DNA of 64,000 nt from a virus (Duplodnaviria; Heunggongvirae; Uroviricota; Caudoviricetes): IMG/VR virus record IMGVR_UViG_3300042922_000323, positions 60,977 through 124,976 of that record; one strand, 5' to 3'. The notes beneath the pieces were generated by a model. That model ran no database searches, was not told the DNA's origin, and saw nothing but the letters and a program-made list of their open reading frames with translations. The position numbers and the translations under genes are program-made. Shown here piece after piece: positions 24,207-57,918 of the stretch. The number at the start of each line of letters is the position of its first letter. The stretch's first letter is position 1.

Positions 24207-24563
24207 ATGGAGGATTTCATAATGGACAATGTTCTTGAAACGCTAATTGGGATGGTGGCTACAAAGCCGATTAATATTACAGTCAACGTATATAATAGAC
24301 CTGATGCTACACCAGTAGCGTCGTTATTAACTACGCTTGACGGTGATGATTGTGACGGTGAATGTGACCTATGTGGTTGTTGCTGTGATGACGTTGCAGA
24401 GGATTTTGATGAAGTCATTGATTGCGATGACTGTGAAGAAGCTAAATACGCACAGATTTGGGAAACTTTTAAGGGCATTATTGTTCAACAGATGCCAGGT
24501 GGCGAACAGAAATTGGAGCTACTTAAACTCATGAGTTATTTAGAGAATACCATTCTCGGTTAG
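24207..24563 (+). CDS. Acidic, Cys-rich hypothetical protein (118 aa; …CDGECDLCGCCCDD…).
   Basis: ORF track. It is transcribed divergently from terS. Confidence 0.4.
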   Translation: MEDFIMDNVLETLIGMVATKPINITVNVYNRPDATPVASLLTTLDGDDCDGECDLCGCCCDDVAEDFDEVIDCDDCEEAKYAQIWETFKGIIVQQMPGGEQKLELLKLMSYLENTILG

Positions 24564-24705
24564 CATAACCTCCATAAGAAAAGTAAGATATATCCTCTAA
24601 GGATATATCTTACTTTTCTTATATTTTCACATCGCTAACTACATCCTTTTATCAACCTTAACTTCATTGGTTGGGCGTTTGCTCAAATTTTATAGGGGGT
24701 ATTAT

Positions 24706-24972
24706 ATGTTAAATGAAGTATGCTATAATGAAATTGGTAAAGTGAACCTTGAAAACAGAATAACTAATATTTGTGAATTGCCATTAACTCTTAGCGTAGC
24801 CGATATTTCAAAGGTTTTAGGAATTTCTAAACATAATGCCTACTGCCTATGTCATAACAAAGGATTTCCTTGTATACAGGTTGGTAAAAGGCTAGTGATT
24901 CCTAGACCTGCATTTGAAAGATGGATGGAAAACCCATTTATATTTGAAAGTGAGGAAAAACTAGATGGCTAA
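24706..24972 (+). CDS. xis: Excisionase or DNA-binding protein (HTH …LSVADISKVLGISKHNAY…).
   Basis: HTH motif. It overlaps the integrase start. An RBS (AGGGGG) lies before the ATG at 24706. Confidence 0.55.
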   Translation: MLNEVCYNEIGKVNLENRITNICELPLTLSVADISKVLGISKHNAYCLCHNKGFPCIQVGKRLVIPRPAFERWMENPFIFESEEKLDG

Positions 24973-26122
24973 GAAAAGAGAAAATGGCGAAGGAACTATT
25001 ACAAAATTAGCGAATGGAAGTTACATGGGTAGAATACTTCTAGGTTACAAAAGTGATGGCAAACAAAATAGAAAAAGTGTTTATGGTAAAACCAAAAGTG
25101 ATGTAATTCAGAAACTTCAGGAACTGTCCCTATCTAAAGTTCATGGTCTAAAAGAACCAAGTAACATGCCATTAGGAACGTGGCTTTTATATTGGTTGGA
25201 GAATTTCAAAAAACTAAGGTTAAAACCAAAGACCTATGAAGTTTACGAAACGCAAGTGGTATATAACATTATACCCTTACTTGGAGATATACCATTAAAA
25301 GACTTAAATACCCTACAAATACAGAAATATGTTAATGATAAGTCTCAAACACTAGCTCCCGCTACTGTCCGAAAGCAGTTTAGTATACTAAACTCAGCAT
25401 TGGATAAAGCAGAAGCAAACGAATTGATAACTAAAAACCCATGTAACCACGTAGAATTACCTGTTTTGGAGCAAAAAGAGATTAGAGCCTTAACACTTGA
25501 TGAAGAGAGTAAGTTCATTGAAGTTTCTAAGAATGATAAACTCTATTCACTATTTGTCGTGGCTCTTGATAGCGGTTTAAGACTTGGTGAAATACTTGCC
25601 CTAACCTGGAATGATATTGATGTAGATAAAGCTGAAATAAACGTCAATAAAAATGTTATATATGTCAAGGATTATGAAAATAAGTCCAAGACCAATAACA
25701 TTATTGCAGTTCAGGATAATCCTAAAACAAAGTCCTCTATAAGAAAAGTACCGCTCACTCAAAGGTCTCTGAATTTGTTAAAGGAACTTAAATCAAAAAC
25801 AAATTCCATTATAGTATTTGCTACAAAAACAGGGAACTATTTAAACCCTAGAAACGTGGAACGGTCATTTGTAAGAAATGCTACCAAAGCAGGAATTGAA
25901 GGTTGTAACTTTCATACTTTAAGACATACATTTGCTACAAGACTTTTTGAACGAGGTATATTTGTAAATGTTGTGTCAAAATTATTAGGTCATGCTAAAA
26001 CTTCAATAACAACCGACATTTACATTAGTGTAATACCATCACTAAAAAGTAATGCAATAAAAGCATTGGATTTACTGCACTCTGAGCAAATGCAAAGTAA
26101 ACCACTCGCAAACCAATTATAA
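24965..26122 (+). CDS. int: Tyrosine recombinase (phage integrase, 385 aa).
   Basis: C-terminal catalytic motifs HTLRHTFATRL and …TDIY are conserved in phage integrases. Confidence 0.9.
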   Translation: MAKKRENGEGTITKLANGSYMGRILLGYKSDGKQNRKSVYGKTKSDVIQKLQELSLSKVHGLKEPSNMPLGTWLLYWLENFKKLRLKPKTYEVYETQVVYNIIPLLGDIPLKDLNTLQIQKYVNDKSQTLAPATVRKQFSILNSALDKAEANELITKNPCNHVELPVLEQKEIRALTLDEESKFIEVSKNDKLYSLFVVALDSGLRLGEILALTWNDIDVDKAEINVNKNVIYVKDYENKSKTNNIIAVQDNPKTKSSIRKVPLTQRSLNLLKELKSKTNSIIVFATKTGNYLNPRNVERSFVRNATKAGIEGCNFHTLRHTFATRLFERGIFVNVVSKLLGHAKTSITTDIYISVIPSLKSNAIKALDLLHSEQMQSKPLANQL

Positions 26123-26415
26123 ACCAATTAGCATGATTTTTGATGATTTTAGAGGGTTTTAAATACCAGTATATGGTAAATAAGGAGGTGAATACGCTGA
26201 ATAAATCAACAATAAAAAAATCCCGAACCCGCCCATTCACAAGGGATTCAGAGATTTTTTGTTGGAGCTCCCATCCAGATTCGAACTGGAGACCTCATCC
26301 TTACCATGGTAGGTATCAGTTTTGATACATCCGATTGAAGTCAGTAATATCAAGTGTTTCAAGGTTTCACTTTTTATAAAATTAATGATTTAAACCAATC
26401 ACAAACCAATTGGCT
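26101..26415. mobile_element. attP-like region. Its core holds the 3' end of a tRNA (T-arm plus acceptor) on the minus strand at about 26263-26294. Direct repeats AAACCAAT(T/C)A(T/C)AAACCAATT(A/G)GC flank it at 26108-26132 and 26388-26412.
   Basis: The reverse complement reads GGTCTCCAGTTCGAATCTGGATGGGAGCTCCA, with no matching 5' acceptor strand nearby. The repeats flanking the core look like arm-type integrase binding sites. Confidence 0.5.
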
Positions 26416-43547: not shown

Positions 43548-43645
43548 GGAGGGGTAGCACAGTGGTTGTGCGTGGGCATGGAGGGTAAGAAACATTCGTT
43601 ACTAAGTGTCCCCCAAGATGTCAGTTCGAGTCTGACCTCGCTCCT
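43548..43645 (+). ncRNA. Aberrant tRNA-like sequence (~98 nt). The D-arm (TAGCACAGTGGTTGTGC) and T-arm (GTCAGTTCGAGTCTGAC) look canonical. The acceptor pairs only if one nucleotide bulges, and no clean anticodon arm is present.
   Basis: Folded by hand. It may be a degenerate or insert-containing tRNA. Confidence 0.3.
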
Positions 43646-43952
43646 AAATATAAATGTGGTGTGCCTAGCTTCTGAAAGCAGTCACATCACGTCACCCATC
43701 TTATCGTGGGCTACAGCGTCCAAACCTGTAGCCCACGTTGCTTCAAATCAATGCCAAGGTACATACCCAGTGCAATAATCAGTGGGTATCCCTCGTACCA
43801 TTGATGGAATAATTAGGTGTACCGAGGAACAGGCAAGGAGTTTAAGCCTGTAGTATAAACAAGATACACTGGATAAACGGTTGCAAACGTACAGCCTTGT
43901 GAAGGTATGTACCTTGTTCGGCGGGGATATACAACCAACCCCGCCATAGCAT

Positions 43953-46611: not shown

Positions 46612-46670
46612 CTACTGCAGTACCCCCACGTATAAGTACTATGTAAGATTATTTATACGAGGTGTTTATA

Positions 46671-47054
46671 GTGAAAGAAAGTACTATGACGAGGGGAAGG
46701 GTTGCTGTATATGTACCCGACCACCCGAAAGCTAACAACAGGGGTTACGTTTTGAGAGCCAGGTATGTTATGGAACAATACCTGGGAAGGTATTTAACTT
46801 CTGATGAAGAAGTCCACCATATTAATGGCAACAAGACCGATGACAGAATAGAGAACCTAGTAGTGCTATCTAAGTCTGACCACGCTAAACTTCATATAGA
46901 ACAGGGCGATTTTGGTACTGGTAAAAGGCTAGATATTACTAAGGTCATGGAACTAAGGCAGTTAGGATTTGGCTATAAGAAAATAGCTAAAGAGTTAGGT
47001 TACCCTGTGGCTTCTGTAAAATCAGCCGTAAGGAAGATAGAAAGAGCCGCATGA
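46671..47054 (+). CDS. HNH endonuclease with a C-terminal HTH (…EVHHINGNKTDDRIENLVVLSKSDHAKLH…).
   Basis: HNH motif read in the translation. GTG start with RBS GAGGTG. The ORF track starts at 46662. Confidence 0.7.
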   Translation: MKESTMTRGRVAVYVPDHPKANNRGYVLRARYVMEQYLGRYLTSDEEVHHINGNKTDDRIENLVVLSKSDHAKLHIEQGDFGTGKRLDITKVMELRQLGFGYKKIAKELGYPVASVKSAVRKIERAA

Positions 47055-47293
47055 TAATAAATTTCCAATATTTGGGGATGATTTTGGTATCGACGGGCTT
47101 ATGAAGTGTTGTTCTCGCCCGAAGTCGCCCGTGGCTTCGATAAAACGGGCACTAAATTAAACGCTAAAAACGTATTAAATGCAGTAAAAGGTTTCTTTGC
47201 TTCCCTCGTACCAACTCCCGCTTTTGCAGGAGCTTGTGCGTAAGCTAGAGCCTTTCAAAACACCACACCTGCTACGGGTAAGTGGTTGAGGTC

Positions 47294-47477
47294 GGAGATA
47301 CATAGTGATAGTTTCCTGCATCGTTAATGCAGGTGGTGGATGGCTACGTAAACCAATACGTGCCCCAGTTTCAGCAGGTTTGTCAAACCGCCCCGCCAGG
47401 GTTAAAAGGCTACGGCGTGAATAAAGAACAACAGGGATTAGGTTCGGACACGGGTTCAACTCCCGTCATCTCCACCA
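47294..47477 (+). ncRNA. Candidate structured ncRNA (~184 nt) with a tRNA-like 3' end (T-arm ACGGGTTCAACTCCCGT, acceptor CATCTCC, A, CCA) pairing with a 5' GGAGATA. A rho-independent terminator (47479-47511) follows.
   Basis: Read and folded by hand. The internal hairpins (CCTGCATCGTTAATGCAGG, GGTTTGTCAAACC) lie in a region with no convincing ORF. Confidence 0.4.
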
Positions 47478-47478
47478 T

Positions 47479-47511
47479 AAAAGGCAGGATTAAACTCCTG
47501 CCTTTTAATTT
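47479..47511 (+). terminator. Rho-independent terminator (ggcagg…cctgcc followed by a T-run).
   Basis: aaaaggcaggattaaactcctgccttttaattt. Confidence 0.6.
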
Positions 47512-47623
47512 GTGCCTATTTACCCTTGCAACGGACACCTTCCAGTGGGAGGTAAGAAGAGTAATAGGCATAAATTAAAGGGCAGAATGTCCTAAAAACA
47601 AAATGTATAAGGAGGTCACGCAT

Positions 47624-48022
47624 ATGTGTCAACATTGCAGTGGAGTAAGAAGGTATGCACCAGAGTATAAGGCTTTAAAAGAAGACCAGAATGGTTCTGG
47701 GGTAGTAAAGATTCAGGGTCGTCCAGTACAGTTTATCAAGCAGGGTAACAGAATTATCGTCAAACAGCATTTGGTAACTGATATAGGCGAAGTTGTGGGT
47801 ATCTGCGAGAAGCACGATGGTGATGCTTACAGATGCAAACTGGGTGTAAAAATCTCATTGGCTAAAGCATTGAAAAAGCTCCTTGTCAAAGAAAGAGAAT
47901 TACACGAGCAACACTTACAGCCAATAATCACTCAGTATGATTCATTGGTTGAGGAAATTACCCAGGCTATGCCTGATACTACCCTAAAAAGAATCAGACC
48001 AAAGAGGTCAATAAGTGAATAA
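47624..48022 (+). CDS. Hypothetical protein with an N-terminal CxxC (MCQHCSG…).
   Basis: ORF track, trimmed to an ATG after AAGGAGG. Confidence 0.45.
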   Translation: MCQHCSGVRRYAPEYKALKEDQNGSGVVKIQGRPVQFIKQGNRIIVKQHLVTDIGEVVGICEKHDGDAYRCKLGVKISLAKALKKLLVKERELHEQHLQPIITQYDSLVEEITQAMPDTTLKRIRPKRSISE

Positions 48023-48182: not shown

Positions 48183-49100
48183 ATGGAAACAAAATATAAC
48201 GTAAAAAAGGGTTTCAAAATAAAACTCGGAGGTATCATAGTAGCCGTAGTATTGGTACTGGCTCTGATAGGACTGCTTATCTGCTCAACAACGATTAAGG
48301 CAGGTTACGTTGGCGTTGTTTACAATGCTAATGGCGGTATTGAAAATACTGTTTTAAACCAGGGATGGTATACAGTAGCTCCTTGGAAGCACGTTACCAG
48401 TTACCCAGTAAGTACTGAAACAGTGTATCTCAGTAAAGGTGTTAAAGAAAGTGGCAAGGACGATGATTCTGTGATGGCGGGTACTGCTGATGGAAAGCCT
48501 ATCAATATGGACGTATCATATACATACCATTTTGATTCGTTGAAGGTGAAAGATATATTTACAAAATTTCGTGGTCAATCTGCGTCCGCCATAGCTGATA
48601 GCTACATAAGACGTTTCATTAAGGATGACTTAAATGAAATCTCTACCCAGTATGGCACGTTTGATGTGTATGGTACAAAGAGAACCGAGGTAGCACAGAA
48701 GACTTACCAGAAGTTAACTGAGGACTTAAAGAAGGACGGCATTATCATCGAGTCATTCAGTATCACTGATGTAAGACCTGACGCTGAAACTACCAAAGCA
48801 ATACAGGCTAAAGTCAATGCTATTCAGGCATTGGAACAAGCCAAGGTTGAAAAGGATAAGGCAGTGGTTGAAGCTGATAAGAAAGTAGCTGTTGCCAAAG
48901 GTGACGCTGATTCAGCTAAGATAAAGGCTGATGGTGAAGCGTATGCCAACAAGGTAAAACAGGCTTCGATAACACCTGAACTCATTCAGTACACACTGGC
49001 TACGAAATGGGATGGAAAACAGCCTATAGTGGTCGGTGGTAACGGTGCAATACTTGATTTGAGTAAGTTGATGACTGATAATACTGCCGCCACTAAGTAA
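48183..49100 (+). CDS. SPFH (band-7, prohibitin or HflK/C-like) membrane protein (305 aa).
   Basis: An N-terminal TM helix followed by an SPFH-like domain and a coiled-coil Ala/Lys-rich C-terminus. Confidence 0.6.
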   Translation: METKYNVKKGFKIKLGGIIVAVVLVLALIGLLICSTTIKAGYVGVVYNANGGIENTVLNQGWYTVAPWKHVTSYPVSTETVYLSKGVKESGKDDDSVMAGTADGKPINMDVSYTYHFDSLKVKDIFTKFRGQSASAIADSYIRRFIKDDLNEISTQYGTFDVYGTKRTEVAQKTYQKLTEDLKKDGIIIESFSITDVRPDAETTKAIQAKVNAIQALEQAKVEKDKAVVEADKKVAVAKGDADSAKIKADGEAYANKVKQASITPELIQYTLATKWDGKQPIVVGGNGAILDLSKLMTDNTAATK

Positions 49101-49371: not shown

Positions 49372-49440
49372 TTCCGTGTAGCTTAATGGTAGAGCAGCCC
49401 CCGAGGGGGGCGGATATTGGTTCGAACCCAATTACGGTAA
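49372..49440 (+). ncRNA. tRNA-like sequence with a non-canonical anticodon arm. The stem is GCCCC/GGGGC with a 5-nt loop, which alternatively folds as a 6-bp GC hairpin with loop GAG. It may be a pseudo-tRNA.
   Basis: D-arm TAGCTTAATGGTAGAGC and T-arm ATTGGTTCGAACCCAAT are canonical. The acceptor has one mismatch. No CCA is encoded. Confidence 0.3.
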
Positions 49441-54884: not shown

Positions 54885-54955
54885 AATAGGAGGTGGGCAA
54901 ATTGCCAAGAAAAGTAGTAAAGAAAGAAACAGAATTATCAGGAGGTAATGACGTT

Positions 54956-56506
54956 ATGAGTAATCCAGTACAGGCAGAAGATGTTATTAAGCCAGAGCAG
55001 TTGAACCTTATTATTTTGGCTTGCACTGACTGCGGTCAGGATTGCAGTAAATCTTATGGTGAGGTTGATGGCAAGCCTTTCTGTGACAAATGTTTTGATA
55101 AGAATTTCCGAGAGTGCACTGATTGTGGTAAACTCAAACCAAAAGCTGATGGAAAATTCTTCAAAAGAAAATTCTTTTGTATTGACTGCTATGACAGGAA
55201 GTACACCCTATGCGGACACTGCCACGAAAAGCTTGCAAAAGAAGATGCTAAAGAGCATGACGGAGTTCTGTACTGCCCGAAGTGCTTTGAAGAGCTGTTT
55301 GTAACATGTACTGACTGCGGTGCTGTTATGTTAAAAGATAGCACCGTAGTTCATGAGGGCAAGCATTACTGTCAGACTTGCTATGATGCAATGTTTGTAG
55401 AGTGTGTTGAATGTCACGCAAGAGTTCACAGAAGTAGTATTGTCCTGGTGGACGGTGAACCTTATTGTGGTCATTGCTTTGAGACTCAAACAGTTGAGTG
55501 CGACCATTGCCACAGAAGAGTAAACATTAACAATGCTCACGAAGATGAATATATTCACCTATGTAGTGATTGTTATGACAGTAACTATTACACTTGTGAT
55601 AGTTGTGGTAACTTTGTGCACGGCAATGATTTGGTGAGCAGAGGAAGTCAAACATTCTGCCCCGATTGTGCCCCTACGAGAGACATTCATGACTACTCGT
55701 TTAAACCTACCCCAAGATTCTACGGCGGATTTGACGAATTTGCCACATTCATGGGTGTTGAACTTGAATGTGACAGTGCAGGTGAGGACAGTGACAATGC
55801 AAGAAGAGTACTGAATATTACTAATGCAGAATACCGACTGCTCTATTGTAAGCATGATGGTTCACTAAATCGTGGATTTGAAATGGTTACCTATCCATGT
55901 ACCCTTGATTGGCACATGAATAAGTTCCCGTGGAAAGACGCACTGAAAAAATGTAGGTCAATGGGCTACAAGAGCCATGACAGTGGTAATTGTGGTCTAC
56001 ACGTACATATCAGCAGAAAAGCTTTTGGTACATCATTGGAAGACCAGGACGTTAACATCATGAAGTTATTGTTCTTCTTCGAGAAGTTCTGGACTAAGAT
56101 GGTTAGATTCTCACGAAGAACTGACTCTCAGCTTTCAAGATGGGCTAAAAGATATGGAATGAAGAGAACGCCGCAGGAGCTTCTGAATACTGCTAAAGGT
56201 TCAGAAAGATACTACGCCGTTAACCTTTGTAATCAAAAAACTATTGAGTTGAGATTGTTCAGGGGTACTCTTAAATATTCCACATTCATTGCCACTCTAC
56301 AGTTTGTACATGAACTTGTACGTATACTGAAAGAGTCATCAGTTGATGAAGTTACAAATACAAACTGGCTTGACTTTGTTAGGAAGATGAATCCTGAGTA
56401 CAGAGAACTCGGGGAATATCTTGAAAGAAGGGGCTTATCTTCTGAACCCATGACTACTGGCGTAGCTCGTGAGGATACAGATAACGACGAAGATACCGCC
56501 GCATAA
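54956..56506 (+). CDS. Fusion of an N-terminal seven-repeat LIM-like zinc-finger array (C-x2-C-x8-14-C-x2-C-F/Y) to a C-terminal amidoligase domain (Amidoligase_2-like, of the glutamine-synthetase or GCS-like fold; …GVELECDS…HDGSLNRGFEMVTYP…NCGLHVHIS…).
   Basis: Motifs read directly. The start is an ATG after GGAGGT, in frame with the ORF track ORF 54893-56506. I recognise the amidoligase fold by motif only. Confidence 0.55.
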   Translation: MSNPVQAEDVIKPEQLNLIILACTDCGQDCSKSYGEVDGKPFCDKCFDKNFRECTDCGKLKPKADGKFFKRKFFCIDCYDRKYTLCGHCHEKLAKEDAKEHDGVLYCPKCFEELFVTCTDCGAVMLKDSTVVHEGKHYCQTCYDAMFVECVECHARVHRSSIVLVDGEPYCGHCFETQTVECDHCHRRVNINNAHEDEYIHLCSDCYDSNYYTCDSCGNFVHGNDLVSRGSQTFCPDCAPTRDIHDYSFKPTPRFYGGFDEFATFMGVELECDSAGEDSDNARRVLNITNAEYRLLYCKHDGSLNRGFEMVTYPCTLDWHMNKFPWKDALKKCRSMGYKSHDSGNCGLHVHISRKAFGTSLEDQDVNIMKLLFFFEKFWTKMVRFSRRTDSQLSRWAKRYGMKRTPQELLNTAKGSERYYAVNLCNQKTIELRLFRGTLKYSTFIATLQFVHELVRILKESSVDEVTNTNWLDFVRKMNPEYRELGEYLERRGLSSEPMTTGVAREDTDNDEDTAA

Positions 56507-56586
56507 TTACTGTTAGCTGAGAGTCACCTGCATAAGTGGGTGGCTCTTTTAATTTACTTATTAAAAACTTAGGAGGTTTGATAATC

Positions 56587-57918
56587 ATGTGTGGATTATA
56601 CGGTTTCATTAACTATTCAGATAAGGAATTTAAGGGTCTTGATGCAGTTGTAGAACTGCTTGGTAAATCCTCCGCCGTAAGGGGTACAGACGCTACAGGT
56701 ATAGCGTACAATATGGACGGTAAGTTGCATATAGACAAAGATGCAAAGTCAGCTTATCAGTTCAAGTTTGATGTTCCTGACAGTTCAAAGGTTGTTATTG
56801 GGCACACTCGTAAGACAACCCAGGGAAATCAAAAGAAGAATTACAATAACCATCCGTTCCGTGGCAAAATTGGAGAGACTAACTTTGCTTTGGCGCATAA
56901 CGGGGTTATTCACAATGACCTGAGACTGAGAAATCAGTTGAAGCTTGAAAAACCAAAGATTGAGACTGACAGTTACGTAGCTGTTCAGTTGATTGAAAAA
57001 CACGGAACTTGGGGTATTGATGCCCTTAAATATGCAGGTGAAATGGTCGAGGGTATGTTCTCATTCACCTTAATGGATGACCAGGATAATTGGTATCTTG
57101 TTAAGAATGACTCCCCGCTCGTAATGCTCCATTTCCCTGAACTCGGGGTGTATGTATATGCTTCAACACAAACAATATTGTTTGAAGCCATACTATATAG
57201 CTCCGCTCTATCTTCTGAAATAATCAGCCCATTCAAGACAGGAGTTGTGAGTGCTGTTCTTCTTGAACCAAAAGCGGGGGATATATGGAAAATAAACAGC
57301 AAAACTGGTGAACTTGAAAAGTCCACATTTAAGCCATCAGATGATAGAAGATACTATGGAAATGGTTATGGCTATAACTCCTGCTACTGGGATGACTATG
57401 ACTGTGGATATGGAAGGGTGTGGGACGCTAAGGCAAACACCTGGAAAGAGAGTTCCACTAGCAGAAAGTCTACAACTACTATTTCCACAACTTCTACTAC
57501 AAGCACTGCCGCAAGCACCACTAAGAAAGAGAAGTCAAAGTATGACCCTGCAAAGGAAGCCAACAGGCTCACAGATAAGGAATACTATGACATGCTGTTA
57601 CAGGTTGCCGAAGGTATGGGGCATGATAGAAAGGATATTCGTATCTTAAAGAACTACGGATATGGGTTGGATGAAATTGAACAGGCTCTGTTTGATAGAA
57701 CACTTGATCTGTTGCTTGAAGAAGCCAAGCAAGTCGTAGGGGACAAGATAGATAATCTTGCAGGAGATACAGAACTTGATAAGGGCGACATTATAACTGA
57801 GGATGGTGCTTCTGTTAATCAGATTCTGAACGAAGTAGATGAAACCAACAAGAGAGCCGAAGCCGCCATAGCGTCGGCAACAGGAATATCATCGTCAGTC
57901 GTTATTGAAGAAGACTAG
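56587..57918 (+). CDS. Class-II (Ntn) glutamine amidotransferase-like protein with an N-terminal Met-Cys nucleophile (MCGLYGF…) and a Ser/Thr-rich, coiled C-terminal extension.
   Basis: MCG at the N-terminus after RBS GGAGG. A GATase-II-like core follows (…GHTRKTTQG…). It is adjacent to the amidoligase gene, as expected for amidoligase-GATase systems. Confidence 0.55.
   Translation: MCGLYGFINYSDKEFKGLDAVVELLGKSSAVRGTDATGIAYNMDGKLHIDKDAKSAYQFKFDVPDSSKVVIGHTRKTTQGNQKKNYNNHPFRGKIGETNFALAHNGVIHNDLRLRNQLKLEKPKIETDSYVAVQLIEKHGTWGIDALKYAGEMVEGMFSFTLMDDQDNWYLVKNDSPLVMLHFPELGVYVYASTQTILFEAILYSSALSSEIISPFKTGVVSAVLLEPKAGDIWKINSKTGELEKSTFKPSDDRRYYGNGYGYNSCYWDDYDCGYGRVWDAKANTWKESSTSRKSTTTISTTSTTSTAASTTKKEKSKYDPAKEANRLTDKEYYDMLLQVAEGMGHDRKDIRILKNYGYGLDEIEQALFDRTLDLLLEEAKQVVGDKIDNLAGDTELDKGDIITEDGASVNQILNEVDETNKRAEAAIASATGISSSVVIEED

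What the first reader, a model, noticed from the sequence alone, without database searches (positions are those of the whole stretch)
47170..47520. ORF-free ~350-bp region that may encode a ~184-nt structured RNA with a tRNA-like 3' end and an intrinsic terminator
Positions 47447-47477 read ACGGGTTCAACTCCCGT-CATCTCC-A-CCA, a T-arm plus acceptor plus encoded CCA. The acceptor 3' strand can pair with GGAGATA at 47294-47300. A strong rho-independent terminator follows at 47479-47511. The body is rich in hairpins and has no credible ORF. The two ORF-track ORFs here overlap each other on opposite strands and look spurious. It is too short for a canonical tmRNA (usually over 300 nt). It could be a minimal tmRNA-like or tRNA-like ncRNA, or a second att-type tRNA 3' fragment. 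It lies immediately downstream of an HNH endonuclease gene.
Basis: seen in the sequence. Interest (0 to 1): 0.6.

Follow-up and report, generated by a model that had tools for sequence, protein, structure and literature searches.

The report
Full-length tmRNA gene in a phage
The flagged stretch is the 3' half of an ordinary-sized (404-nt) transfer-messenger RNA gene carried by a ~125-kb phage; this kind of phage cargo is already known, and the only unusual point is a long, non-standard tag peptide that is conserved in one related phage.

Summary
The RNA was mis-delimited. ARAGORN and Rfam both call a complete one-piece tmRNA at 47074-47477 (+), 404 nt (RF00023, 108 bits against a cut-off of 47, full model). 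The acceptor 3' strand pairs with GGGGAUG at 47074-47080, giving the G3:U70 alanine identity pair. It does not pair with GGAGAUA at 47294.

The gene has PK1, a GCU resume codon at 47163 and a 26-codon tag ORF (AKNVLNAVKGFFASLVPTPAFAGACA*). It lies inside a circularly assembled ~124.8-kb phage genome, 21 kb from the integrase, so it is not an att remnant.

One related contig (L073) carries the same tmRNA, terminator and downstream gene. Homology starts 4 nt before the tmRNA 5' end. Stems show compensatory changes, and all six differences in tag codons 8-24 are synonymous. Other relatives lack the gene. No SmpB was found in the 84 kb examined.

Phage-encoded tmRNAs are documented (about 2% of phage genomes). 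This is a new member of a known kind. The atypical conserved tag is the only mildly interesting feature.

The parts
47074..47477 (+). Complete one-piece tmRNA (ssrA) gene, 404 nt
   Evidence: ARAGORN tmRNA call. Rfam RF00023, 108 bits against gathering score 47, E 3e-41, model positions 1-374 of 374, not truncated. The minimum-free-energy fold closes 1-7 with 394-400 and forms the long P2 helix and the T-arm. A 78% identical homologue is present in L073 659-1081.
47074..47080 (+). Acceptor stem 5' strand, GGGGAUG, with G3 of the G3:U70 alanine identity pair
   Evidence: It pairs 7 of 7 with CAUCUCC at 47467-47473; G at 47076 pairs with U at 47471 (sequence; Rfam alignment). The stem is identical in L073.
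47120..47150 (+). Pseudoknot PK1. Stem 1 is CGAAG 47120-47124 with CUUCG 47135-47139. Stem 2 is GCCCGU 47127-47132 with ACGGGC 47145-47150.
   Evidence: Found by inspection of the sequence. Stem 2 is the hairpin marked in the Rfam consensus and is the MFE hairpin of that segment. In L073, stem 1 reads CCGAG/CUCGG, which is two pairs changed on both sides (alignment).
47163..47243 (+). mRNA-like domain: GCU resume codon (47163-47165), 26-codon tag ORF AKNVLNAVKGFFASLVPTPAFAGACA, and UAA stop (47241-47243)
   Evidence: ARAGORN coding part 90-170. The resume codon lies 12 nt after PK1. L073 has the same length and frame, with tag AKNMISKVKGFFASLVPTPAFAGAVA. In codons 8-24 there are 6 differences, all synonymous third-position changes. 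P(6 of 6 synonymous) is about 5e-4, for a block chosen post hoc.
47334..47418 (+). Most conserved block of the 3' pseudoknot domain (tmRNA positions 261-345)
   Evidence: 92% identical to L073, against 59% for tmRNA positions 171-260. The Rfam alignment here has low posterior probability, so PK2-PK4 are not resolved.
47450..47477 (+). T-arm (47450-47466), acceptor 3' strand (47467-47473), discriminator A (47474) and encoded CCA (47475-47477)
   Evidence: Read from the sequence and the Rfam alignment. The T-stem differs from L073 at two pairs, both changed on both sides: C-G to G-C and G-C to A-U. The 28-mer occurs once in the window, against 0 expected by chance.
47478..47511 (+). Intrinsic terminator directly after the CCA
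   Evidence: 12-bp stem with GGCAGGA/UCCUGCC core, loop UUAAAC, then UUUUAAUUU. Energy -17.9 kcal/mol, z = -5.75. Nearly identical in L073, where the terminator scan calls it. The same scan missed it in the window, probably because it extends the stem through the A/U tracts.
46662..47054 (+). HNH endonuclease gene ending 19 nt before the tmRNA (neighbour, not part of the RNA)
   Evidence: Pfam HNH_3 and PHROG HNH families. Absent from L073, where unrelated genes precede the tmRNA. No sigma-70-like promoter lies between it and the tmRNA.
47624..48022 (+). 132-aa ORF of unknown function, co-conserved with the tmRNA in L073
   Evidence: Only two homologues were found among 5.8 billion proteins. 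L073 (68% identity) has the tmRNA upstream of it. L072 (72% identity) has a 258-nt non-coding gap there instead.

Best explanation
Window 47074-47477 (+) is a functional, phage-encoded, one-piece transfer-messenger RNA gene. It lies in a ~124.8-kb circularly assembled tailed-phage genome that probably infects a member of the Bacillota.

Shown:
- All the sequence-level hallmarks of tmRNA are present: a 7-bp acceptor stem with G3:U70, a T-arm, encoded CCA, the long P2 helix, PK1, a GCU resume codon, a 26-codon tag ORF with a UAA stop, and a terminator directly after the CCA.
- A related phage contig conserves the whole unit, with compensatory stem changes and synonymous-only changes in most of the tag.

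Inferred:
- The gene is transcribed with the rightward early/middle gene block, because no promoter of its own is visible and the HNH stop codon is only 19 nt upstream.
- The 5' end is matured by host RNase P. The 3' end is formed by termination and trimming back to the CCA.
- The RNA is charged with alanine by host AlaRS and is loaded by host SmpB and EF-Tu onto ribosomes stalled on broken or stop-less mRNAs during infection.
- The nascent chain receives Ala plus KNVLNAVKGFFASLVPTPAFAGACA, and the ribosome is released.
- The benefit to the phage would be a free ribosome pool while mRNAs are being degraded by host shut-off or by host RNase-based defences.
- The conserved hydrophobic tag does not end in the usual LAA or YAA. 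This suggests that tagged proteins are handled somewhat differently from the host's own tagged proteins.
For: - Two independent detectors agree on the same coordinates: ARAGORN and Rfam RF00023, 108 bits against a cut-off of 47, full length.
- The G3:U70 pair, PK1 and the resume-codon geometry can be read directly from the sequence.
- The MFE fold closes the two ends and forms P2 and the T-arm. The terminator is strong.
- Phage context: major head protein (phrog_1005), a 2050-aa ORF presumed to be the tape-measure protein (no family match), an integrase and an HNH endonuclease. The capsid protein is about 36% identical to those of Bacillus and Brevibacillus phages of ~120-130 kb. Coordinate arithmetic on the source contig gives a circular period of 124,784 bp with no host flanks.
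- Conservation in L073: Rfam 85.5 bits, full length, 78% identity, with homology starting 4 nt before the 5' end.
- The two-sequence consensus fold has 93 pairs: 85 invariant, 3 changed on one side, 5 changed on both sides and 0 broken. PK1 stem 1 adds two more pairs changed on both sides.
- Tag length and frame are identical in the two phages. All six differences in codons 8-24 are synonymous, P about 5e-4.
- Full ssrA genes in phages are documented: PMC4131195 (Bacillus phage G, the Bxz1 group), PMC9004378 (402 of 18,146 phage genomes) and PMC7162821 (huge phages).
Against: - There is no expression or aminoacylation data.
- Only one homologous tmRNA was found, so covariation rests on two sequences. 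The consensus fold was also derived from those same two sequences, which biases it towards 'no broken pairs'.
- The block of tag codons used for the synonymous-change test was chosen after looking at the data. Across the whole tag, 5 of the 11 differing codons are non-synonymous.
- PK2-PK4 could not be resolved (low posterior probabilities).
- No SmpB gene was found in the 84 kb examined, and about 44 kb of the genome was not seen.
- No promoter of its own was detected.
- The gene is absent from other relatives (L072, L064, L066, L074), so it is dispensable for this phage group.
- The tag's C-terminus (A-C-A or A-V-A) is not a known degron, so the fate of tagged proteins is unknown.
Confidence: 0.85

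Rival explanations
1. One reading: a ~184-nt minimal tmRNA-like or tRNA-like RNA, starting near 47294 and closed by GGAGAUA pairing with the acceptor 3' strand.
For: GGAGATA is at 47294-47300 and can form 6 of 7 pairs with CAUCUCC. TLD-only phage molecules do exist, for example in mycobacteriophage DS6A (PMC4131195).
Against: - The true partner, GGGGAUG at 47074-47080, pairs 7 of 7 and gives G3:U70. The alternative gives A3-U70 and a terminal A·C mismatch.
- Rfam and ARAGORN align the full 404 nt.
- PK1, the resume codon and the conserved tag ORF all lie upstream of 47294.
- Homology with L073 starts at 47070.
Confidence: 0.02
2. An attachment-site element. The tmRNA 3' end would serve as attP for integration into a host ssrA gene, or the sequence would be host DNA picked up by imprecise excision, with no role as an RNA.
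For: - The last 35-36 nt are identical to the ssrA genes of many gut Clostridia MAGs.
- The phage encodes a tyrosine integrase.
- Many temperate phages carry ssrA 3' fragments at their att sites (PMC9004378 discusses this).
Against: - The whole gene is present, not a 3' fragment.
- It lies 21 kb from the integrase (24965-26122).
- There is no second copy or direct repeat of the 3' end in the window.
- Identity to bacterial genes stops at the universally conserved tRNA-like domain. The rest is only 58-65% identical to any of the 53 bacterial tmRNAs recovered.
- The related phage has a different T-stem with compensatory changes and a tag with synonymous-only changes. That is the signature of selection on the RNA and the peptide.
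Confidence: 0.04
3. A decoy. The RNA would bind and titrate host SmpB, AlaRS or EF-Tu to inhibit host trans-translation rather than perform it.
For: - No phage SmpB was found.
- TLD-only RNAs inhibit tmRNA, as cited in PMC4131195.
- The tag is atypical.
Against: A decoy needs no reading frame. Here the frame, the length and 17 of the 26 codons' amino acids are preserved through synonymous changes, and PK1 and the resume context are conserved.
Confidence: 0.05
4. A decaying passenger gene with no current function.
For: The gene is present or absent among close relatives. The central region, tmRNA positions 171-260, is only 59% identical and rich in indels.
Against: The full-length Rfam score is far above threshold in both copies. 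No predicted pair is broken, pairs have changed on both sides, and the tag is conserved through synonymous changes. The terminator is conserved.
Confidence: 0.04

Closest known systems
Bacterial one-piece tmRNA (ssrA, Rfam RF00023) of Bacillota, especially gut Clostridia
   Same: The overall architecture is the same: tRNA-like domain with G3:U70, P2, PK1, an Ala resume codon, a short tag ORF and encoded CCA. The last 35-36 nt are identical to those of 58 genome contigs, mostly Clostridia MAGs.
   Different: - Overall identity to those genes is only 58-65%.
- It is 404 nt long, against about 345-350 nt.
- The tag has 26 residues ending in ACA. The Clostridia-type genes in that set mostly have 9-11 residues ending in YAA, LAA or VAA; the Mycoplasma-type genes in it have tags of 23-29 residues.
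- It is located in a phage genome with no smpB nearby.
Phage-encoded full-length tmRNAs: Bacillus phage G, mycobacteriophages Bxz1/Catera/Rizal and relatives (PMC4131195), huge phages (PMC7162821), and about 2.3% of sequenced phages (PMC9004378)
   Same: A complete ssrA gene is carried as accessory cargo in a large tailed-phage genome that also carries tRNA genes. The proposed role is to maintain translation during infection.
   Different: - No sequence similarity beyond the last ~35-50 nt to any of 50,697 phage records.
- No match in IMG/VR to four exact or degenerate patterns taken from it.
- A different, lineage-specific tag.
- Unlike some huge phages, no SmpB has been seen so far.
ssrA 3' fragments at the att sites of temperate phages (for example Enterobacteria phage CP-1639 and Salmonella phage RE2010)
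   Same: They share the T-arm, acceptor and CCA segment.
   Different: Those elements carry only about 35 nt, at or near the genome ends or the integrase. Here the complete 404-nt gene lies 21 kb from the integrase.
TLD-only tmRNA-like molecule of mycobacteriophage DS6A (PMC4131195)
   Different: This locus has the full mRNA-like domain, PK1 and the pseudoknot region.
Long Mycoplasma-type ssrA tags, reported to be recognised by Lon rather than ClpXP
   Same: The tag is long (23-29 aa in the Mycoplasma loci), with hydrophobic or aromatic determinants and a non-LAA end.
   Different: There is no sequence similarity in the tag, and the protease specificity of this tag is untested.

Membership tests
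tmRNA (RF00023, one-piece) | Score at or above Rfam's curated gathering threshold over the full model | tested here: met
   108 bits against 47, model positions 1-374 of 374, E 3e-41. ARAGORN agrees on the coordinates.
tmRNA (RF00023, one-piece) | tRNA-like domain: 7-bp acceptor stem formed by the 5' and 3' ends, G3:U70, T-arm, discriminator A and 3' CCA | tested here: met
   GGGGAUG (47074-47080) pairs with CAUCUCC (47467-47473), with G47076 opposite U47471. The T-arm is 47450-47466, followed by ACCA at 47474-47477. The T-stem covaries with L073.
tmRNA (RF00023, one-piece) | Pseudoknot PK1 just upstream of the resume codon | tested here: met
   Two interleaved stems, 47120-47124 with 47135-47139 and 47127-47132 with 47145-47150. 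In L073, stem 1 keeps 5 bp through two pairs changed on both sides. The resume codon is 12 nt downstream.
tmRNA (RF00023, one-piece) | mRNA-like domain: alanine resume codon, short ORF and in-frame stop | tested here: met
   GCU at 47163, 26 codons, UAA at 47241. Length and frame are identical in L073, and codons 8-24 differ only by synonymous changes.
tmRNA (RF00023, one-piece) | 3' pseudoknots PK2-PK4 | tested here: inconclusive
   The Rfam alignment has low posterior probability across 47240-47410. Hairpins are predicted and conserved, but two sequences cannot establish pseudoknots.
tmRNA (RF00023, one-piece) | Alanylation, SmpB binding and trans-translation activity | not testable with these tools
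   These need biochemistry. No SmpB gene was found in the window or in 10 kb on either side, so a host SmpB would be required.
Phage-encoded tmRNA (accessory ssrA in a virus genome) | The gene lies inside a phage genome, not in flanking host DNA | tested here: met
   Phage structural and accessory genes lie on both sides. The source contig is circular by coordinate arithmetic, with a period of 124,784 bp.
ssrA-derived att fragment | Only a 3' fragment is present, adjacent to the integrase or genome ends, or duplicated as a direct repeat | tested here: not met
   The full gene is present. The integrase is 21 kb away. The 3' end occurs once in the window even with 3 mismatches allowed.
   That pairing is 6 of 7 and lacks G3:U70. 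The full model aligns from 47074. The tag ORF and PK1 lie upstream of 47294 and are conserved.

The most novel reading that the evidence does not exclude
The phage tmRNA may not be just a spare copy of the host function. It may carry a phage-tailored tag. The conserved hydrophobic core VKGFFASLVPTPAFAGA and the non-canonical end A-(C/V)-A could send tagged nascent chains to a fate other than the host's standard ClpXP route. Possible fates are a different protease such as Lon or FtsH, or no degradation at all. The phage would then rescue ribosomes while controlling what happens to the truncated proteins.
Probability: 0.2. Interest if true: 0.55.

Novelty: new member of a known kind. Interest (0 to 1): 0.3.

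Why it matters
For annotation, it replaces a speculative 'minimal tRNA-like RNA' with a firm call: a canonical tmRNA gene in an uncultivated ~125-kb phage of the Bacillota.

Biologically, it adds one more lineage to the roughly 2% of phages that carry ssrA. It also gives a small, clean comparative case: two phages, with tag and stems under visible purifying selection, and close relatives that lack the gene. That case argues such phage tmRNAs are used rather than being debris.

The long tag without an LAA or YAA end is a cheap experimental handle on a question nobody has answered: why phages carry their own tmRNA.

Tried and rejected
- blastn of the tmRNA against 50,697 phage records gave nothing at E 1e-5. 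At E 10 it gave only ~35-50-nt 3'-end matches, mostly to ssrA att fragments of enterobacterial temperate phages.
- Four exact or degenerate pattern scans of IMG/VR all gave 0 hits: the 37-nt 3' end, the 24-nt 5' end, a tag back-translation and an invariant 27-mer.
- A metagenome scan with a 5'-end pattern gave 3 hits. Two were chance matches and one was an unrelated truncated bacterial tmRNA.
- A genome scan with the 28-nt 3' end gave 58 contigs, but none has a close full-length relative (58-65% identity). No donor or host could be named beyond 'Clostridia/Bacillota-type tRNA-like domain'.
- Synteny via the downstream Band_7/SPFH gene: relatives at 54-61% protein identity (L064, L066, L074, L075), and IMG/VR relatives at 33% (L001, L002), have no tmRNA nearby. 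The 72% relative (L062) ends 289 nt upstream of the gene and is uninformative.
- I considered a functional link between the tmRNA and the neighbouring HflC-like SPFH protein, a family that regulates FtsH. I rejected it as unsupported, because L073 has the tmRNA without the SPFH gene and the SPFH-bearing relatives lack the tmRNA.
- A search for a promoter of the gene's own found none between the HNH stop codon and the 5' end.
- The simple terminator scan missed the terminator in the window, although folding shows it clearly.

Full report
**Observation.**
I read 46800-47800. GGAGATA is at 47294-47300. A hairpin plus U-tract follows the CCA immediately. Folded alone, 47474-47520 gives a 12-bp stem (47478-47489 / 47496-47507) at -17.9 kcal/mol, with z = -5.75 and 0 of 200 shuffles as stable. 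The upstream ORF 46662-47054 is an HNH endonuclease (Pfam HNH_3; many PHROG HNH families). The 28-nt 3' motif occurs once in the window, with none expected by chance. So the features are real.

**What it is.**
- ARAGORN calls a tmRNA at 47074-47477 (+), with tag peptide AKNVLNAVKGFFASLVPTPAFAGACA*.
- Rfam RF00023 matches the same coordinates at 108 bits (gathering score 47, E 3e-41), covering model positions 1-374 of 374.
- The RNA is therefore 404 nt, a normal size, not ~184 nt.
- The acceptor 3' strand CAUCUCC pairs 7 of 7 with GGGGAUG at 47074-47080. This gives the G3:U70 wobble pair that is the alanine identity element of tmRNA (established knowledge).
- Reading on from the 5' end, PK1 has two interleaved stems: 47120-47124 with 47135-47139, and 47127-47132 with 47145-47150.
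- A GCU resume codon lies 12 nt later, at 47163. It opens a 26-codon ORF that ends with UAA at 47241-47243.
- The unconstrained MFE fold of the 404 nt closes positions 1-7 with 394-400 and forms the long P2 helix and the T-arm.
- The 3' pseudoknot region aligns poorly to the Rfam consensus (low posterior probabilities). I leave PK2-PK4 unresolved.

**Context.**
- The window is phage DNA. It has a major head protein (phrog_1005), a 2050-aa ORF presumed to be the tape-measure protein (no family match), a tyrosine integrase at 24965-26122, a PIN-PhoH protein, an SPFH/Band_7 protein, and an amidoligase/GATase pair.
- It also has three tRNA genes.
- The capsid protein is about 36% identical to those of Bacillus phage EZ-2018a and Brevibacillus phage Jenst, whose genomes are ~120-130 kb.
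- Exact-protein look-ups place the window on Logan contig SRR35179700_35432, 124,814 bp.
- The two coordinate mappings (record = 151076 - x and record = 26292 - x) differ by 124,784. The contig is therefore circular with a 30-nt end overlap, which means a complete phage genome without host flanks.
- The tmRNA sits in the rightward gene block, 21 kb from the integrase.
- An HMM built from bacterial SmpB proteins finds no SmpB in the window or in 10 kb on either side. About 44 kb of the genome was not examined.

**Relatives.**
- The tmRNA has no match in 50,697 phage records at E 1e-5. At E 10, only the last ~35-50 nt match, mostly to the ssrA att fragments of enterobacterial temperate phages. 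That is a useful contrast with the complete gene here.
- Four IMG/VR pattern scans found nothing. A metagenome 5'-end scan found only chance or unrelated hits.
- The 28-nt 3' end is exact in 58 GTDB contigs, mostly gut Clostridia MAGs and Mycoplasmas.
- The tmRNAs recovered from those contigs are only 58-65% identical overall. The Clostridia-type genes are about 345-350 nt long and mostly carry 9-11-residue tags such as ANKNLAYAA; the Mycoplasma-type genes are longer, with 23-29-residue tags.
- Identity to them extends only 35-36 nt from the 3' end, which is the universally conserved part of the tRNA-like domain.
- The decisive relative came from the 132-aa ORF just downstream (47624-48022). 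It has only two homologues among 5.8 billion proteins.
  - One of them, L073 (Logan SRR23892727, 2.5 kb), has a 423-nt tmRNA immediately upstream. Rfam gives it 85.5 bits, full length, and ARAGORN reads the tag AKNMISKVKGFFASLVPTPAFAGAVA*. It also has a nearly identical terminator.
  - The other, L072, has a 258-nt non-coding gap there instead.
- Homology between L073 and the window starts at window 47070, 4 nt before the tmRNA 5' end. The upstream genes are unrelated, and L073 has no HNH gene.
- Relatives found through the SPFH gene (L064, L066, L074, L075) have no tmRNA nearby.
- The tmRNA is thus an accessory cassette that is variably present in this phage group.

**Evidence of selection.**
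- The two tmRNAs are 78% identical. By region: 92% in positions 261-345, 59% in 171-260 (with indels), and about 80-83% elsewhere.
- A consensus fold of the pair has 93 base pairs: 85 invariant, 3 changed on one side, 5 changed on both sides and none broken. Two of the double changes are in the T-stem and two are in the 47315-47333 hairpin. The fold was derived from the same two sequences, so 'none broken' is partly built in.
- PK1 stem 1 also changes CGAAG/CUUCG to CCGAG/CUCGG, which is two further double changes.
- The tag ORF keeps its length and frame although indels are common elsewhere in the RNA.
- Codons 4-7 and codon 25 differ in amino acid. Codons 8-24 (VKGFFASLVPTPAFAGA) carry six differences, all synonymous and all at third positions.
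- With 28% of possible single changes in that block being synonymous, P(6 of 6) is about 5e-4. The block was chosen after seeing the data, so this figure is indicative only.
- Third-position periodicity cannot be explained by RNA structure. It implies that the tag is translated.

**Mechanism.**
- Shown: a complete tmRNA with conserved structure and a conserved tag, in a phage genome.
- Inferred from the established trans-translation pathway:
  - The gene is co-transcribed with the rightward genes. No sigma-70-like promoter lies in the 19 nt after the HNH stop codon.
  - Host RNase P matures the 5' end. The terminator and trimming define the 3' CCA.
  - Host AlaRS charges the RNA, and host SmpB and EF-Tu deliver it to stalled ribosomes.
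  - The nascent chain is extended by Ala plus the 25 further encoded residues, and the ribosome is released.
- The likely benefit is to keep ribosomes free while mRNAs are being destroyed during infection. This is the role proposed in the literature for other phage tmRNAs (PMC9004378, PMC7162821).
- The tag is long, hydrophobic and ends in A-C-A or A-V-A rather than LAA or YAA. What degrades the tagged proteins, if anything does, is unknown.

**Rivals.**
- The 184-nt minimal RNA is contradicted by every line of evidence above.
- An att-site remnant fails its defining features: this is the full gene, it is far from the integrase, there is no repeat, and identity to bacterial genes is limited to the conserved tRNA-like domain.
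- An SmpB-titrating decoy or a decaying passenger gene is hard to reconcile with the conserved reading frame and the compensatory stem changes.

**Novelty.**
Full ssrA genes in phages have been known since the Bxz1-type mycobacteriophages and Bacillus phage G (PMC4131195). They occur in about 2.3% of sequenced phages (PMC9004378) and in huge phages (PMC7162821). This is a new, sequence-divergent member of that kind. The only mildly unusual feature is the conserved non-canonical tag. Interest is low to moderate, at 0.3.

Noticed in passing
window 43548-43644 (+): A 97-nt match to the tRNA model (RF00005, 30.6 bits, just above the gathering score of 29) appears only with the permissive filters. 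ARAGORN does not call it. It overlaps ORF 43566-43778 and may be a tRNA with an intron or a long extra arm, or a tRNA-like element.
   Followed up: no
window 49372-49440 (+); L073 1670-1851: The tRNA-Leu(gag) is short (69 nt, 43 bits). Its region is 71% conserved in L073, yet ARAGORN calls no tRNA there.
   Followed up: no
L072 266-522: In the relative that lacks the tmRNA, a 258-nt non-coding stretch occupies the same position upstream of the homologous 135-aa gene. It has no Rfam match at E <= 0.01 and could be another RNA or just a promoter region.
   Followed up: partly
L064 11412-15895; L066 11006-12232: Larger related phages (182 kb) carry a Ro60/TROVE protein next to a 3-kb gene-free stretch, just downstream of their SPFH gene. 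That stretch holds odd tRNA-like calls (ARAGORN 'tRNA-???' with 2-nt anticodons). They also carry RtcB RNA ligase. This looks like a Y-RNA/RNA-repair module in the region where the window phage has its tmRNA.
   Followed up: no
L009 309-728 (-): A 'Bacilli' MAG contig (tmRNA GC 60%) has a 420-nt tmRNA with another long, odd tag, AKKNVIACRMQPSFRMAACAC*. It shares the AK(K)NV start and a Cys-containing end with the phage tag. Overall RNA identity is only 60%.
   Followed up: no
window 26262-26291 (equivalent to the ends of Logan contig SRR35179700_35432): Coordinate arithmetic across three look-ups shows that the source contig is circular, with a period of 124,784 bp and a 30-nt end overlap. The window therefore comes from a complete, circularly assembled phage genome. 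A JGI contig of 124,976 bp carries identical proteins.
   Followed up: partly
window 48183-49100 (+): An SPFH/Band_7 protein, which JGI names 'regulator of protease activity HflC', lies 700 nt downstream of the tmRNA. The pairing is tempting because HflKC regulates FtsH. However, the two genes are not linked in relatives.
   Followed up: partly
window 54893-57918 (+): Adjacent genes encode an Amidoligase_2 protein with zinc-ribbon/LIM-like motifs and a class-II glutamine amidotransferase. This is a recurrent phage gene pair of unclear function.
   Followed up: no
window 24534-24651: A strong palindromic or hairpin region lies between the end of the leftward structural genes and the integrase start. 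It gives several meaningless sub-threshold Rfam hairpin matches. It could be a bidirectional terminator or the attP region.
   Followed up: no
L024 3387-3414 (-); L048 7610-7637 (+): In two Clostridia-type contigs the exact 28-nt tmRNA 3' end lies next to smpB, but ARAGORN calls no tmRNA. These may be unusual tmRNAs that the program misses.
   Followed up: no
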